From the IMG/VR virus record IMGVR_UViG_2645727867_000006: a stretch of 11,948 nucleotides of DNA, one strand, 5' to 3'. Position numbers: made by a program. This stretch comes from a virus. Taxonomy: Duplodnaviria > Heunggongvirae > Uroviricota > Caudoviricetes. The stretch's first letter is position 1. Every line of letters starts with the position of its first letter. Below, in pieces: positions 1,291 to 7,200 of the stretch.

Positions 1291-4200
1291 TAAACAGGGG
1301 GTAAAACGTGAGCAGAGCAATGAACAAACTGAGCGATACCTTGCTAAGGAAACTTCATGGTAAGCCAGCGGAGAAAAACACGTTTTATAGCGATGGCGGA
1401 AATCTGAGCGTGAAATATTTAACATCAGGGAAATTAACCTGGTATTTCACTTACAGGGCAGGAACGGGAAGAGAGACACGACCGGAACGTATTAAGCTGG
1501 GAAATTATCCTGATCTGAGCCTGAAAGCAGCCAGGGAAAAAGCCGCCCAGTGTCGCGCATGGCTGGCGGAGGGGAAAAATCCACGCCATGAGATGAATTA
1601 CGCCGTACAGGAAGCGTTAAAGCCGGTAACGGTTGGCGATGCGCTCACCTACTGGCTTGAGTCGTACGTAAAGGAAAACCGCGTGGATTATATCGCCCTG
1701 AAAAGGCGACTTAATAATCACGTAATACAGCACATTGGTGCTATGCCGCTGGATAAATGCGAGCTACGGCACTGGCTGGCCTGTTTTGACCAGGTGGCAA
1801 AGCGAACGCCTGTTACTGCCGGATTCGTGCTACAGGCGTGCAAACAGGCGCTTAAGTTTTGCCGTAGGCGGCGCTATGCAATCAGCAACGTTCTGGACGA
1901 TCTGAACGTGGCGGACGTTGGGAAAAAACCGGATATAAGCGAACGTGTCTTAAGCACCAAAGAACTGGGCGAGTTATTGCAGGCGCTGGATAAAAAAATA
2001 TTTTCTCCTTACTACGTCGCGTTAATCCGCCTCCTGATTGTCTTCGGAGCCAGGACGGTAGAACTGAGGTTATCGGAGATCAGCGAGTGGGATTTTACCG
2101 AAATGCTATGGACCGTTCCGAAGGAGCACAGCAAAACGAAGGTTGCAATATTCCGGCCCATACCGGAAGCGATCCTGCCGTTCGTCACGCGGCTGGTGGA
2201 GCAGAACAGGCACACGGGCTTATTACTGGGGGAAGTGAAACAGGAGGCTAGCGTATCGCAGTACGGCAGATTAGCGCACAGGAGGCTAAAACACCCTCAA
2301 TGGTCATTGCATGACATCCGGCGCACCTTTACAACGATGCTGAATGATTTGGGCGTGGACCCTCACGTCGTGGAGCAGCTTACAGGTCATCAGATGCCAG
2401 GGATGCAACGAGTCTATAACCACTCCCGTTATCTCGATGCGAAACGTGATGCGCTGGATATGTGGACGGAGCGGTTAGGAATACTGGCGGGAACACATGA
2501 AAACGTAACCACGCTACCAGTAACCAGAATAAAATAATTTTTTTCGTGTTTTTTCAGTATGCGCATACTGGATAAGTGCACAGATACAACGTGAAACAAT
2601 GTGCAACAACGTGACACAATCACGAACAAGAGGCCAAAAAGAATACAGATTTATAAGTTACTGATTTTTAATGCTCAGCTGGTTTTTTATACATTAGTGA
2701 ATTACGCGTTAAAGCGTGCGAAAAAAGGCATAAAACAAGATTTTATGCCTTTGTATTAACATGAATTTAAATGATTTTATCCTGATTATTCCTCTTTCTG
2801 TAAACCATGCGACACCAACATTTGCCAACTCTGAATCATCCTGACACAATCAGACACATCCCAACGCAATAGAACACGAAATAACTCTTTAAGAAACGAA
2901 AGGGGGCAATAGTGTTAAGCACTGATCGGTTTATACGTGAAAAAGAATGCGAAAAGCTAACAGGCCTTAGCCGCTCATGCCGCTACCGCCTGGAAAAGGC
3001 CGGACAATTCCCATCACGTCGTAAACTTGGCGGGCGTTCTGTTGGCTGGTCTTTATCTGAGGTTTTGGCCTGGAAGGATAGCTGCAAGGCAGTTCACTAA
3101 AAAGACTGGCGGCACACAGTCGCCACACATCCACTAATACAGAGATATAACCATGAAGATTGAATATGCGCCCGAACGTGGGCGGGGATTCGTTCGCCCT
3201 GGTGAAACTGAAAAACAACAAAATTGGGGTTTTTCAGGCATAAAAAAAGCGGCCCCGATATGGAGCCGCCTTTCTGAACAATTAACCTGCTGCGCCTTAT
3301 GTGTATGTGATCCCAAACATAAGCACGGGAATGATAGCCGCTATCAGGCTGGTGGGCAATGTAATTACCCTTTGGGTTCTATGCCGCGCCGCTTTAGTTC
3401 TGCCCTGGCTAATTCTTTAAACCAGTTACCAAGGGTTAGACCGTCAGAAGTTGCAGCTTCATTTACTTGTTGGCGTAGCTCTTTACTGATTCTGATTTGG
3501 AAGGTTGGAGACCATCCCTCACCGCGTGGCGATTTATCGCGCTTTAATGTTGACATGTACGTACGTAACTCCTATTATCATTTCCGTTACGTACGTACAA
3601 TATCAGTAGGTACAGTAAAAAGCAAAGCCCCGCAAGTGTCGTTACCACTCGCAGGGCTTCTAACCAACAACGTAAACGAGGAGCCGTTATGGTTGCCGTA
3701 AATCATATACCACACCTTGTACACACACAAACGGCCTTTGTGTGGCGTTTTCTGGCCCTGAATATCGGAGAAAAAAACCAGTTGATCGCCAGTGTCGAAA
3801 ATAGCTATGATTCCCGCGCACCTCATAAAACGGGTGCCGGGATTGGCGTCCTGGGCAAAACTGAAGCGCATAACACGCGCCCCGCGTGTTTTTTTGTGCC
3901 GCATAGTCACACCTTATCAATGGTGGGCTGTACGGGGGCGGAGCAATCCGCGCCGGTTTCTTCAGTGTCCGGTTACGCCAACCCTGTACAGTCCGCCACC
4001 AGCGAAATTGGCGTTTCCGGTGGCGGTTATCTTAACCACACTGAGGAGGCTGCCAACATGGCTACTATCCCTACCCTTGTACATTCTCAAACCGCCTTTC
4101 TCTGGCGCTTTATCATCTTTGGCGCGTCAGAACATCAAATCATCCACGTAACCGCCTGGACGGAACGCGAAGCGCGTAGCCGTTGCCCGTCAGGTTGTGT

Positions 4201-7200
4201 TGCTGTATTTGCCGCCCGTATTCGTCAGGAGGTGCGCCATGTGCAATGACACCCGTCCTGACGCAGCCGCAGAAGCCATCAAAACGCTGATGCACGCGCT
4301 GATTGATATTTCTGTTATCGCAGACAAGGCACATAAGCACGCCACCAGCGAAACAGAATATATCGGGGCTTTCGTTCCTCACTTACTGGCTGTTATGCAA
4401 TTTAGTGCTGATATGGCGCTGAATGAGGACGGCAAAATTCTTACCGCAGATATTCAGGGAGTGCACCATGCATGATGACCGTTATTTTAAATCAATGAGC
4501 CATGCAGAAAATGCACTGACTAACAGTGAATGTTTGCGGCAAATATTGCTTATCTGGCTTGATGGTTTAAGTGATGCGCCGGAAGATGAACGTGAATCTA
4601 ATCTTGCTGGTGCGTTTATTTCATTACTCGATACGGTAATCGTCGAATTAAATAAAGCGATCGAAATTCACGATAAAAAAATAAACGCGGAATAAAAAAC
4701 ATGAAACAGAAAAATTCTGGCTTTACTGCCAGTGGCCCCGCTCGGCCTGAAAGCCGCCCCGGCGATATTTTCCGGGATAAATACGGAAGTCAGATAACGG
4801 TAAAAACGGTGAGTGCTTATCGGGTGACATATATCCGCGAAGGTTATGCGCATCCCTGCGTGTCGTCACATATGCGCTTTGAGAGTGAATTTACCCTGGT
4901 AAGCAAAGCACCACCAGCGGACTTAAGCGACATCGACAGAATCATGCGCATTACAGGTATGGAACGCATTAAGGCAGTACGTGAAATTATTCGTGAGCGG
5001 GGAAAGGCAAAATGAAACTGGCACCAAACGTAAAACTGTTACCGAAAGATAAAGGCGAGGATGCAGTGATTTTTGCAGGGGATGACGCATACAGCCATGT
5101 AGAGCATTACATGCAGGGCGGAGAAGCCAGAAAGCGCGGAGACAAAATACCACCTGTTTATCTCGGGCGGCGTGACCTGGGTAACCTGGAAAACCTGCGT
5201 ATTGTGGATGATGGTCGGTCACGCGCCATCGTCAGACGTGCCGGAAAACTGGATGACAAACTGGCGCTACAGATTGAAACCCTGCTGGCAGTGGCAGGTG
5301 TTAAGGAAGCCTGTTTTTGTGACGAGAACGGCGATTTACTGGAGGACTGGACGCCGCAGCTTGCCCGGCTGAAAGACGAATACGAGCGCGGGGAAAGTCT
5401 TGTGTTGCCCTTAAAGAAAAAAGCCACCACAAGCCCGGGTGATGATGAATTAAAGCCCCGCGTTGAAAGCCGCGCCGATGGTGTTTTCTGGGTAACGCCC
5501 AAAGTGGATAAGCAGTCAGGCGAAATTATCCGGCCTGAGACGTGGTTATGTTCCCCGCTTGAACTACTGGGAACGGGGACAATCGGCAAAGAGCATTACC
5601 GCGTGATGCGCTGGAAAAAACCAGCAAATCATGAAGTCATCACAATGGCGGTTCCGTGCGGTGGCATTGGCGACCGTGACGGCTGGCGGCTACTGAAAGA
5701 CCACGGACTGAACGTAACAACTAACGGCAAATACAGGGCTATCCTGGCTGACTGGATGCAGTTAAGCGGAAGCCATGAGGAATGGCAGTTAAGCACAACA
5801 ACGGGCTGGCATTTTGGCGCGTACATCATGCCGGACGGTTCGATCATTGGTGATTCTGAAAAACCGATCCTGTTTACCGGAAAAAGCGCCGCGATTAACG
5901 GTTATTCCGTGGCGGGTACGGCGGAGGGCTGGCGCGAGAGTGTGGCGCGACTGGCTGGCGGTAATGCCTCAATGATGCTGGGTGTGGCAACGTCACTGGC
6001 AGCGCCTTTAATTGGCCTTGTGGGTGCTGACGGCTTCGGGGTGCATCTTTTCGAACAGTCATCGGCAGGTAAGACCACCACGCAGAACATCGCATCAAGT
6101 TTATGGGGAGAGCCGGACGCGCAGCGGCTGACCTGGTACGGCACGGCGTTAGGTATTGCCAATGAGGCCGAGGCCCATAATGACGGGCTTTTACCACTGG
6201 ATGAGATAGGCCAGGCCGGAAATGCGCGGGAAGTGTCAACGTCTGCTTATACGCTGTTTAACGGTTCAGGGAAATTACAGGGGGCGAAGGACGGCGGCAA
6301 CAGGGAGATAAAACACTGGCGAACGGTGGCAATCAGCACCGGAGAAATGGACGTTGAAACGTTCCTCAAAACGGAGGGGATAAAGGTTAAGGCAGGACAG
6401 CTTGTCCGTCTGCTTAACGTGCCGATGGAAAAAGCCACGCAGTTTCACGAATACAGCACCGGAAAGGCGCACGCAGACGCGTTAAAAGATGCCTGGACAG
6501 AAAATCACGGGGCGGCGGGGCGTGAGTGGGTTAAATGGCTGGCAGACCACCAGCAGGAGACAAAGGACACGGTAAGGGCATGCCGTGAACGGTGGCGCAA
6601 CCTGATACCGGAGAGCTACGGCGAGCAGGTCCACCGCGTGGGTGAGCGTTTCGCCATACTGGAGGCCGCACTTGTGCTTTCCGGTCATGTGACTGGCTGG
6701 GATGAGCAGGAATGCCGTGATGCCATTCAGCATAATTTTAATGCCTGGGTGAAAGAGTTCGGTACGGGCAACAGGGAACACAGGCAGATTATTGAACAGG
6801 CTGAGGCGTTTCTTGCGGCCTATGGCCTGAGCAGGTTCGCCCCTGTCAATTATGACCCTGCCAGCCTGCCGATTTCAGAACTGTACGGCTACAGGGAAAG
6901 CGACGGGCGTTATGACGAGCCTGTTTTGTTTTACGTGCTGCCGGAGCCGTTTAGCTCACATGTGGCGAAGGGATTTAACAAGGATGCCGTAGCAAAGACC
7001 CTTCATGAAGCCGGAATGCTGAGAAAACCAGCCAGCGGGCGGGGATGGCAAATCAGGACACCACGACTAAAACACCTGAAAGGGGCGCGGCTAAGAGTGT
7101 ATGGCCTTTTGCTGACGCAGGACCACGATGCTGAAAATGATTAATCTCGCGTGTAGGAGGTAAAAATATGTTGTCCCAGTCGTCCCAGTAAGCAACAAGC

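What the first reader, a model, noticed from the sequence alone, without database searches (positions are those of the whole stretch)
3689..4249. Leader with a duplicated Icd-like N-terminal motif and an internal intrinsic terminator
The track's single 186-aa ORF is implausible as one protein: its middle is low-complexity and it contains a strong terminator (3873-3896). The start at 3689 (RBS GAGGAG) encodes ...IPHLVHTQTAFVWRF..., repeating the N-terminal motif ...IPTLVHSQTAFLWRF... of the real Icd-like gene at 4058. This looks like a leader/attenuator preceding the Icd-replication operon, reminiscent of termination-based immunity control in P4-type satellites, or a decayed gene duplication.
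Basis: partly seen in the sequence, partly recalled or inferred. Interest (0 to 1): 0.6.

Follow-up and report, generated by a model that had tools for sequence, protein, structure and literature searches.

The report
P4-type RNA immunity switch inside icd
The odd 186-codon reading frame is the known RNA-based immunity region of P4/P1-type phage satellites (two small regulatory RNAs, a terminator and a nested cell-division-inhibitor gene), here spliced in frame into an older copy of that gene, so it is a well-understood kind of switch and not a new one.

Summary
In detail: ORF 3689-4249 (186 aa), the hairpin plus T7 terminator at 3872-3896, and a second Icd-like N-terminus are all present. The interval matches two curated Rfam families. 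IsrK/SeqA RNA lies at 3818-3894 and ends in that terminator. A conserved internal promoter (3782-3811) sits directly upstream of isrK. The C4 loop (CUUCAGUG) pairs with a site in IsrK and with the icd ribosome-binding site. These sites co-vary across relatives, and in strain NCTC9112 all three "a" sites changed together.

The duplicated motif has a simple origin. Positions 3617-3770 and 4136-4249 are the two halves of an intact 65-aa icd gene found in RNA-less islands such as that of EDL933. A ~365-nt cassette (promoter, isrK, C4, RBS, new icd 5' end) lies between the halves, in frame.

The long ORF is not implausible. It mirrors P4 eta with nested kil. In 81 of 81 distinct related modules this frame has no stop across both RNAs.

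Verdict: a mosaic new member of the known P4/P1/Gifsy-1 immunity system. Interest is modest.

The parts
3365..3556 (-). Divergent 63-aa ribbon-helix-helix/Arc-like ORF (YlcI/YnfO family), a candidate repressor of the upstream promoter.
   Evidence: Weak family hits: NF041551 at E 3e-4, phrog_228 'Arc-like repressor' at E 2e-4, HicB at E 2e-3. The NCTC9112 counterpart is annotated as YlcI/YnfO. The repressor role is inferred.
3550..3578 (+). Upstream promoter-like site (TTGACA, 17 nt, TATTAT), proposed to produce the immunity-insensitive transcript that carries the full ORF. It is the functional analogue of P4 PLL.
   Evidence: Matches 11 of 12 consensus positions. The -35 and -10 hexamers are kept in NCTC9112 and E2865 while the flanking repeats differ. 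Activity was not tested.
3556..3599 (.). Perfect 14-nt inverted repeat (3556-3569 / 3586-3599) bracketing the -10 hexamer; operator-like.
   Evidence: Found by the repeat search. Relatives carry different repeat pairs at the same place.
3617..3770 (+). Relic 5' part of an EDL933-type icd: its 5'UTR hairpin, RBS (3678-3683), ATG at 3689 and first ~27 codons (MVAVNHIPHLVHTQTAFVWRFLAL...).
   Evidence: 88-96% identical to the start of intact 65-aa Icd-like genes in hundreds of E. coli genomes. Homology stops at about 3772.
3689..4249 (+). 186-aa read-through ORF, the positional equivalent of P4 eta. It starts upstream of the internal promoter, spans both RNA genes and ends as Icd.
   Evidence: ORF and translation. 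P4 has the same layout (ORF 8812-8168 ending in the 65-aa Kil). The frame is stop-free in 81 of 81 modules. Pfam PF10554 covers aa 40-133, which is the RNA region.
3782..3811 (+). Internal promoter (TTGATC, 18 nt, TATGAT), the equivalent of P4 PLE and Gifsy-1 PisrK. The -10 hexamer ends 7 nt before the isrK model start.
   Evidence: Detected. It aligns with the -35/-10 of P4, SfV and the P1-like phage. In NCTC9112 the hexamers are invariant while the spacer differs.
3818..3894 (+). IsrK/SeqA-type RNA with a1 loop TTGGCG (3843-3848), b1/seqA ACTGAAG (3860-3866) and an intrinsic terminator (stem 3872-3890, T7 3889-3895).
   Evidence: Rfam RF01394 at 66.0 bits against a gathering score of 50, E 1.3e-12, full-length match. 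Terminator scan. Exact coordinates.
3916..4003 (+). C4/CI antisense immunity RNA with b' loop CTTCAGTG (3960-3967), a' CGCCAA (3976-3981) and a 3' ACCA tail. An in-frame ATG at 3920 matches the position of the Gifsy-1 orf45 start.
   Evidence: Rfam RF01695 at 77.6 bits against a gathering score of 45, E 3.5e-14. Fold energy -46.9 kcal/mol, z -5.2. Exact coordinates.
4008..4049 (+). Downstream target sites: a2 TTGGCG (4008-4013) and b2/seqC CACTGAGGAGG (4039-4049). The b2 site covers the icd RBS GAGGAG (4043-4048).
   Evidence: The best duplex of the C4 loop in 3580-4300 is with 4029-4052 at -20.5 kcal/mol. Targets co-vary with the loop across modules.
4058..4249 (+). Nested 63-aa Icd/Kil-like gene, chimeric. 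Codons 1-26 come from the cassette (MATIPTLVHSQTAFLWRF...); from 4136 onward it is the 3' part of the EDL933-type icd. Its stop overlaps the next ATG (4239), which leads into the DUF4222-DUF927 primase operon.
   Evidence: NF033153 at 57 bits. Alignments with the EDL933-type Icd, P1-like Icd and P4 Kil. Downstream genes.

Best explanation
The interval is a P4/P1-type RNA immunity region that controls the satellite's icd-replication operon.

The internal promoter at 3782-3811 makes an untranslated transcript. Most of it stops at the intrinsic terminator and yields IsrK/SeqA RNA (3818-3894). Read-through yields C4/CI RNA (3916-4003). C4 uses its a' and b' segments to pair with a1/b1 in IsrK and with a2/b2 just upstream of icd. 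The a2/b2 pairing covers the icd ribosome-binding site, so icd translation is blocked and, as in P4 and P1, transcription of the downstream replication genes ends prematurely.

A second, operator-flanked promoter at 3550-3578 makes a longer mRNA on which ribosomes start at 3689. That RBS is not a good C4 target. The ribosomes translate the whole 186-codon frame across both RNA genes. As shown for P4 eta, this should prevent terminator and antisense action and open the operon.

The duplicated Icd N-terminus exists because the ~365-nt cassette (promoter, isrK, C4, targets, RBS, icd 5' end) lies in frame inside an older icd gene, whose own RBS and first ~27 codons now serve as the start of the eta-like ORF.

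Shown here: the RNA identities, the complementarities and their co-variation, the promoter conservation, the mosaic origin, and the conservation of the open frame. Inferred: promoter activity, termination in vivo, RNA processing, and anti-termination by translation.
For: - RNA identity. Rfam gives isrK at 66 bits and C4 at 77.6 bits, both full-length and above their gathering scores. P4 carries the same two families in the same order.
- C4 targets. The two best partners of the C4 loop are the icd RBS region (-20.5 kcal/mol) and the IsrK linker (-16.0). The RBS of the 3689 start gives only -11.4, which is background level.
- Specificity. Eight b' loop classes each rank their own seqA and seqC first, or tie with a near-identical class. 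Cognate versus non-cognate means are -15.0 versus -7.3 kcal/mol for seqC and -12.1 versus -8.8 for seqA.
- Co-variation. The alignment shows three-way co-variation including P4 (GTGAGAA / TTCTCAC). The near-identical NCTC9112 copy changed a1, a' and a2 together: TTGGCG to TTAGCC, and CGCCAA to GGCTAA.
- Internal promoter. Its hexamers are conserved and aligned with those of P4.
- Mosaic origin. The junction-spanning composite occurs in 143 of 5426 complete E. coli genomes, on at least two different integrase types and three replication-gene types.
- eta/kil layout. The P4 ORF 8812-8168 reads through both RNAs and ends in the 65-aa Kil. The published mechanism is summarised in PMC10111431. In Gifsy-1, IsrK is described as a SeqA homologue, and the ORF over the C4-like RNA is translated and coupled to the next gene (PMC4825925).
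- Open frame. There are 0 stops in this frame from the isrK start to the nested ATG in 81 of 81 unique modules. The other two frames are stop-free in 0 of 81 and 15 of 81. The nested ATG is in frame in 77 of 81.
- Variable spacer. Only 1 of 44 distinct spacers has a stop in this frame, against 12 and 8 in the other frames and 16.6 expected from shuffles.
Against: - Nothing here measures transcription, termination or translation.
- For this particular composite the in-frame junction is a single historical event with a 1 in 3 chance. The ~35 substitutions that separate it from NCTC9112 without creating a stop are not significant on their own.
- The intrinsic terminator lies inside the ORF. Full-length translation therefore requires tight coupling between ribosome and polymerase, which is assumed from P4.
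- Unlike P4, the long ORF has its own strong RBS and is not coupled to alpA. The upstream promoter looks repressor-controlled and not activator-controlled.
- Forti 1999 could not be read directly. Its content is taken from a secondary summary and from my memory.
- Part of the stop-free frame could simply follow from RNA sequence conservation.
Confidence: 0.72

Rival explanations
1. The RNA immunity module is real, but the long ORF is only a recombination scar. On this view the upstream icd fragment and the in-frame continuity have no function. Only IsrK, C4 and the 63-aa Icd matter, and any translation from 3689 is incidental.
For: - The composite arose from one junction event.
- PGAP calls the upstream part a pseudogene.
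- Amino-acid sequence over the RNA genes is not conserved as protein. There is no third-codon-position excess of variation, and the NCTC9112 changes are non-synonymous and driven by RNA pairing.
- A stop-free frame could partly follow from RNA sequence conservation.
Against: - The frame is stop-free in 81 of 81 modules, including the non-conserved spacer (1 of 44 against 16.6 expected).
- Spacer-length classes keep the frame, and the nested gene is in frame in 77 of 81.
- Almost every module has an ATG upstream of the internal promoter.
- P4 eta translation is reported to be needed for anti-termination.
- The start at 3689 keeps a strong RBS that C4 does not target.
Confidence: 0.2
2. Classical leader-peptide attenuator. 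A short leader ORF is translated, and ribosome position chooses between alternative hairpins, setting termination at 3872-3896.
For: A strong RBS and ATG lie upstream of an intrinsic terminator.
Against: - There is no stop codon before or near the terminator; the frame runs to 4249.
- A conserved promoter lies between the start codon and the terminator, so the main terminated transcript does not contain the leader start at all.
- The terminator belongs to a curated sRNA family, and control is by antisense pairing with co-varying sites.
Confidence: 0.04
3. The ORF encodes a genuine folded 'Ash family' or 'transcriptional regulator' protein whose sequence is what selection acts on.
For: - Pfam PF10554 scores 63 bits.
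- Several PHROGs are labelled transcriptional regulator or repressor, and phrog_29966 covers all 186 aa.
Against: - These profiles match exactly the stretch that overlies isrK and C4.
- Variation shows no codon periodicity and clusters in the RNA specificity sites and spacer.
- Three-way RNA-compensatory changes alter the peptide freely.
- The Gifsy-1 authors noted conserved nucleotides but variable amino acids.
- P4 'cI protein' was long ago reassigned to an RNA (established knowledge; cited).
Confidence: 0.04

Closest known systems
Satellite phage P4 immunity region (PLE, seqA, CI RNA/seqB, seqC, nested eta/kil, upstream PLL)
   Same: - The order matches: isrK-type leader RNA with terminator, then C4-type CI RNA, then a target over the RBS of a ~65-aa Kil/Icd-like gene, then the primase operon.
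- The promoter lies inside a long ORF that reads through both RNAs and contains the small gene in frame.
- A second promoter lies upstream.
- The upstream and downstream target sites are complementary to the CI loop.
   Different: - The IsrK-to-C4 spacer is 87 nt shorter here.
- The long ORF starts with a relic icd 5' end and its own strong RBS, instead of being coupled to the alpA/vis homologue.
- The upstream promoter is flanked by an inverted repeat next to a divergent RHH gene, which suggests repressor control, whereas P4 PLL is activated by Delta/Ogr.
- The specificity sequences differ.
- The host element is a capsid-encoding PICI-like island with a DUF927 primase, not P4 alpha.
Phage P1/P7 immI operon (a1 b1, c4, a2 b2, icd, ant)
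   Same: - C4 RNA has a' and b' segments, and a/b targets are duplicated upstream and downstream.
- b2 covers the icd RBS.
- The Icd-like gene starts MATIPT..., as in P1-like Icd.
   Different: No antirepressor gene follows icd; replication genes do. In the P1-like phage compared here, isrK did not reach the Rfam gathering score.
Salmonella Gifsy-1 isrK-orf45-anrP locus
   Same: - The IsrK family RNA with its terminator and read-through isoform is present.
- The conserved ATG at the 5' stem of the C4-like RNA (here 3920) is the orf45 start, and it is in the same frame.
- Translation is coupled into the next gene.
   Different: The downstream gene is icd plus replication genes, not an antirepressor. 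Here the frame is fused to the next gene instead of ending at an AUGA overlap. The activating trans role of IsrK shown in Gifsy-1 is untested here.
RNA-less PICI/P4-like islands such as that of E. coli O157:H7 EDL933 (alpA, 247-aa ORF, 65-aa Icd-like, DUF4222, DUF927)
   Same: Both flanks of the cassette (3617-3770 and 4136-4249) are about 90-100% identical to this icd, and the downstream operon is the same.
   Different: These islands have no isrK or C4. The window carries the ~365-nt cassette inside icd.

Membership tests
P4/P1-type antisense-RNA immunity region | C4/CI antisense RNA, judged on sequence and structure | tested here: met
   RF01695 scores 77.6 bits against a gathering score of 45, full length 1-87. 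Fold z-score is -5.2.
P4/P1-type antisense-RNA immunity region | Upstream leader RNA (SeqA/IsrK, a1b1) ending in an intrinsic terminator | tested here: met
   RF01394 scores 66 bits against a gathering score of 50, full length. Hairpin plus T7 confirmed.
P4/P1-type antisense-RNA immunity region | The RNA loop is complementary to one site upstream and to one site downstream that covers the RBS of the first gene, and these sites co-vary between elements | tested here: met
   NCTC9112 shows a three-way compensatory change.
P4/P1-type antisense-RNA immunity region | Constitutive promoter immediately upstream of the leader RNA | tested here: inconclusive
   A sequence match (9 of 12) sits at the right distance and its hexamers are conserved. 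Activity cannot be tested with these tools.
P4/P1-type antisense-RNA immunity region | RNA-dependent premature termination (including Rho-dependent) and RNase P/PNPase processing of the antisense RNA | not testable with these tools
   Only the tRNA-like long stem and the 3' ACCA tail (3997-4001) are visible in the sequence.
P4 eta/kil nested genes | An ORF that starts upstream of the internal promoter, spans both RNAs, and contains the small killing/division-inhibitor gene in the same frame | tested here: met
   The window ORF 3689-4249 has an internal promoter at 3782-3811 and a nested ATG at 4058. P4 ORF 8812-8168 has the same layout. The layout is general across modules.
P4 eta/kil nested genes | Translation of the long ORF suppresses termination | not testable with these tools
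   Indirect support only: selection against stops in the non-conserved spacer.
P4 eta/kil nested genes | Translational coupling of eta to the upstream alpA homologue | tested here: not met
   In the window, alpA (2912-3100) is separated from 3689 by a truncated ORF, a divergent RHH gene and a promoter, and 3689 has its own RBS. In E2865 a 409-aa ORF does start right after alpA.
P1 immI operon | c4, then icd, then the antirepressor ant | tested here: not met
   c4 and the icd-like gene are present, but the downstream genes are small ORFs, DUF4222 and a DUF927 primase, with no antirepressor.
Leader-peptide transcription attenuator | A short leader ORF that ends before or at the terminator, with mutually exclusive hairpins | tested here: not met
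   There is no stop until 4249. A promoter lies between the start codon and the terminator.
Pfam PF10554 Phage_ASH as a protein family | Profile match above the cut-off | tested here: met
   63.3 bits against a cut-off of 26, over aa 40-133.
Pfam PF10554 Phage_ASH as a protein family | Protein-level constraint, seen as codon-position periodicity of variation | tested here: not met
   Mean column entropy at codon positions 1, 2 and 3 is 0.289, 0.280 and 0.212 in 61 modules.

The most novel reading that the evidence does not exclude
The reading frame over IsrK and C4 may be maintained for the act of translation and not for its product. On this reading it is a sequence-agnostic 'anti-termination ORF' overlapping two sRNA genes, conserved across P4-like satellites, PICIs, P1-like and lambdoid phages. 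The module would then behave as a portable, frame-preserving cassette that can be dropped into a gene (here icd) to place a whole operon under RNA immunity. It follows that Pfam PF10554 'Ash' and several PHROG 'transcriptional regulator' families are translations of RNA genes, and PF10554 has been used as a marker for P4 epsilon.
Probability: 0.5. Interest if true: 0.45.

Novelty: new member of a known kind. Interest (0 to 1): 0.3.

Why it matters
This explains an odd annotation. The 'ash family protein' pseudogene followed by an Icd-like gene, recurring in at least 143 complete E. coli genomes including many EHEC strains, is a coherent, known regulatory switch. It gives exact coordinates for the two RNAs, their targets and both promoters.

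It also shows how such a switch is acquired: as a ~365-nt in-frame cassette placed into an existing gene. The near-identical NCTC9112 copy documents an immunity-specificity change made by three coordinated substitution sets.

For databases, the result flags protein families (PF10554 and several PHROGs) that describe the translation of RNA genes. For satellite biology, it predicts a two-layer control of replication in capsid-encoding PICI-like islands: a repressor/operator promoter plus RNA immunity.

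Tried and rejected
- I tried to read Forti et al. 1999 and Sabbattini et al. 1995 directly by DOI, PubMed id and PMC id. Neither is held. I relied on the summaries in PMC10111431 and PMC4825925.
- One literature search (P4, timm, kil, eta) returned only noise.
- I tested whether the RBS of the 3689 start is a third C4 target. Its duplex energy of -11.4 kcal/mol is at background level, so I rejected this.
- I tested whether the hairpin at 3624-3660 is the tail of a second, degenerate C4 RNA. 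The homologous EDL933-type islands give no Rfam hit, and the hairpin lies at the 3' end of their 247-aa ORF, so I rejected this.
- I considered an in-situ tandem duplication of icd. I rejected it because the flanks match one icd allele at about 95-100%, while the internal copy is a different, P1-like allele.
- I considered the weak Rfam hits (BSnc120, XIST_intron, mir-*, manA, OppA thermometer) to be chance matches. All are far below their gathering scores.
- My first estimate that the P4 and window spacers differ by 86 nt was wrong. Model-start to model-start, the difference is 87 nt, which is a multiple of 3.
- I did not use the large protein searches or structure prediction, because the peptide shows no protein-level constraint.

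Full report
**Context.** The window is identical to E. coli 94-3024 (NZ_CP009106.2). It covers a phage-satellite-like island lying in a truncated caiT. The gene order is:
- integrase (1308-2537)
- AlpA-like HTH (2912-3100)
- a truncated ORF
- a divergent 63-aa RHH ORF (3365-3556, minus strand)
- the finding (3689-4249)
- small ORFs, then DUF4222 and a DUF927 primase (5012-7144)
- PerC, then major capsid and decoration proteins

PGAP splits the finding into an 'ash family protein' pseudogene (3689-4027) and a 'host cell division inhibitor Icd-like protein' (4058-4249).

**Observation.**
- The ORF is 186 aa, with GAGGAG five bases before its ATG.
- There is a GC-rich hairpin followed by T7 at 3872-3896.
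- There is a second copy of the Icd N-terminal motif. The DNA similarity between 3630-3800 and 4002-4165 scores 55, against 19.7 +/- 2.6 for shuffles, and it includes the RBS region.

**What the middle of the ORF is.** A scan against Rfam finds two full-length matches above curated thresholds:
- C4 antisense RNA (RF01695, 3916-4003, 77.6 bits)

C4 folds at -46.9 kcal/mol with z = -5.2. P4 itself carries the same two families in the same order; its C4 hit coincides with the CI RNA gene. The P1-like phage and SfV also carry the module. The literature already equates IsrK with P4 SeqA RNA (PMC4825925) and notes that the Rfam C4 and isrK models detect CI and seqA relatives in PICIs (PMC10111431).

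**Antisense anatomy.** Within 3580-4300, the 8-nt C4 loop CUUCAGUG (3960-3967) pairs best with two places:
- 4029-4052, which contains the icd RBS, at -20.5 kcal/mol
- the single-stranded linker of IsrK (3847-3870) at -16.0 kcal/mol

A second C4 segment, CGCCAA (3976-3981), is complementary to TTGGCG in an IsrK hairpin loop (3843-3848) and to TTGGCG in a small hairpin at 4008-4013. This is the P1 a'/b' with a1b1/a2b2 design, equivalent to P4 seqB with seqA/seqC.

An alignment of 18 modules shows the three b sites changing together from element to element. P4's a sites have changed together as well (GTGAGAA / TTCTCAC). Across eight loop classes, each loop prefers its own targets: cognate versus non-cognate means are -15.0 versus -7.3 kcal/mol at seqC and -12.1 versus -8.8 at seqA.

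The strongest single piece of evidence comes from strain NCTC9112. Its copy of this same composite is nearly identical, yet it carries a1 TTGGCG to TTAGCC, a' CGCCAA to GGCTAA, and a2 TTGGCG to TTAGCC.

**Promoters.** A sigma-70-like site (TTGATC, 18 nt, TATGAT; 3782-3811) ends 7 nt before the isrK model start. It aligns with the -35/-10 hexamers upstream of isrK in P4, SfV, the P1-like phage and many viral contigs. In NCTC9112 its hexamers are unchanged while its spacer differs. The main terminated transcript therefore starts inside the ORF, downstream of the ATG at 3689.

A much stronger site (TTGACA, 17 nt, TATTAT; 3550-3578) lies upstream. It is bracketed by a perfect 14-nt inverted repeat. 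Relatives keep the hexamers but carry different repeat pairs, which is how repressor/operator specificity swaps usually look. The divergent RHH ORF is the obvious candidate repressor; this is an inference from weak hits.

**Origin of the duplicated motif.** Positions 3617-3772 are 88-96% identical to the 5'UTR and first ~27 codons of an intact 65-aa Icd-like gene present in hundreds of E. coli genomes, for example the EDL933 island. Those islands have no isrK or C4. From 4136 to the stop, the window's icd is again essentially identical to that allele, whereas codons 1-26 (MATIPTLVHSQTAFLWRFIIFGASEH) are a different, P1-like allele.

So a cassette of about 365 nt sits inside an EDL933-type icd with a net gain of 121 codons, in frame. 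The cassette carries the internal promoter, isrK, C4, a2/b2, the RBS, the ATG and the cassette-type icd 5' end. This is neither a leader peptide nor a decayed tandem duplication. The junction-spanning composite occurs in 143 of 5426 complete E. coli genomes, on islands with at least two integrase types and three replication-gene types.

**Is the long ORF implausible?** No.
- In P4, the ORF 8812-8168 starts upstream of the isrK/PLE position, reads through both RNAs and ends with the 65-aa Kil, which aligns with Icd. This is eta with nested kil.
[quoted passage not shown] Kil is translated on read-through. Full-length Eta is made only from the upstream late promoter, and Eta translation prevents termination.
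- In Gifsy-1, the ORF that starts at the conserved ATG in the C4 5' stem (orf45; here 3920, in frame) is translated and coupled to the next gene. Its nucleotides are conserved but its amino acids are not.

I tested how general this is on 120 IMG/VR loci retrieved with a C4 pattern, which gave 101 unique modules.
- The frame corresponding to 3689-4249 is open for hundreds of bases on both sides of C4, while the other two frames close within about 130 nt.
- From the isrK start to the nested ATG it has no stop in 81 of 81 modules that could be anchored. The other frames are stop-free in 0 of 81 and 15 of 81. The nested ATG is in frame in 77 of 81.
- The distances between the a1 site and the C4 anchor fall into classes of 110, 113, 152 and 158 nt, all equal modulo 3. 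Almost every module has an ATG upstream of the internal promoter.
- In the poorly conserved spacer between the two RNAs, only 1 of 44 distinct sequences has a stop in this frame, against 12 and 8 in the other frames and 16.6 expected from shuffles.
- Variation shows no third-position excess: entropy is 0.289, 0.280 and 0.212 at codon positions 1, 2 and 3.

The frame therefore appears to be kept open for translation and not for the peptide it encodes. In the window, C4 does not target the RBS of the 3689 start. That fits an immunity-insensitive entry point for ribosomes.

**Mechanism proposed.** In the resting state the upstream promoter is repressed and the internal promoter makes IsrK and C4. 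C4 masks the icd RBS and, as in P4 and P1, causes premature termination, so the replication operon stays silent. On induction the upstream promoter fires and ribosomes load at 3689. They translate through the terminator and the antisense targets, suppress termination, and icd and the primase operon are expressed.

The RNA identities, pairings, co-variation, promoter conservation, mosaic origin and frame conservation are shown. Promoter activity, termination, processing and translational anti-termination are inferred by homology.

**Novelty.** This is a new, mosaic member of a well-characterised kind.

**Side observation.** Pfam PF10554 (Ash) and several PHROG 'transcriptional regulator' families match only the RNA-overlying part of such ORFs. 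P4 epsilon matches PF25738 instead. PF10554 has nevertheless been used as an epsilon marker (PMC8628076).

Noticed in passing
window 3550-3599; L128 ~2330-2400; L007 ~3930-3990: A strong promoter-like site (TTGACA, 17 nt, TATTAT) is bracketed by a perfect 14-nt inverted repeat (3556-3569 / 3586-3599). Two related islands keep the hexamers but carry different repeat pairs (GTGGCTGACACC twice; ATGGTAATTACC twice). This suggests swapped repressor/operator specificities. The divergent 63-aa RHH/Arc-like ORF at 3365-3556 (minus strand) is the likely repressor.
   Followed up: partly
window 3806-4087 (aa 40-133 of the ORF); L002 8332-8704: Pfam PF10554 'Phage_ASH' and PHROGs 3960, 821, 995 and 6928 ('transcriptional regulator/repressor') match only the translation of the isrK and C4 RNA genes. 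P4 epsilon matches PF25738, not PF10554, yet PF10554 was used as the epsilon marker in a survey of P4-like satellites (PMC8628076). These look like protein families built on RNA genes.
   Followed up: partly
L128 (E. coli NCTC9112) 2415-3047: A near-identical copy of the composite carries a coordinated three-site change: a1 and a2 go from TTGGCG to TTAGCC, and a' goes from CGCCAA to GGCTAA. This looks like a recent immunity-specificity switch. The ORF stays open (210 aa).
   Followed up: yes
L007 (E. coli E2865) 3403-4632: In this island a single 409-aa frame is open from 15 nt after the alpA stop, through the icd relic and both RNAs, to the end of icd. This is closer to the alpA-coupled arrangement of P4 eta than the window is.
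   Followed up: partly
window 3624-3660: A 15-pair hairpin lies in the 5'UTR of the 3689 ORF. The scan scored it as a terminator on the minus strand. It is conserved with the EDL933-type islands, where it lies at the 3' end of a 247-aa ORF, and E2865 has a different stem sequence at the same place. Its function is unknown.
   Followed up: no
window 3153-3365 and 3617-3663: These two stretches are the two ends of the 247-aa 'hypothetical protein' of EDL933-type islands. In the window the middle of that gene has been replaced by the RHH gene plus the promoter/operator block. This is a second cassette-like replacement, directly upstream of the first.
   Followed up: partly
window 1-1293 and 7498-11022: The island sits in a truncated caiT (BCCT transporter). 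It carries PerC, a lambda-E-type major capsid protein and a head decoration protein, so it resembles the capsid-forming PICI class and not P4.
   Followed up: no
window 2688-2769: There is a weak Rfam hit to Brucella BSnc120 (27 bits against a gathering score of 114). It consists of AT-rich hairpins just downstream of the integrase gene. It is probably a terminator and a chance family match.
   Followed up: no
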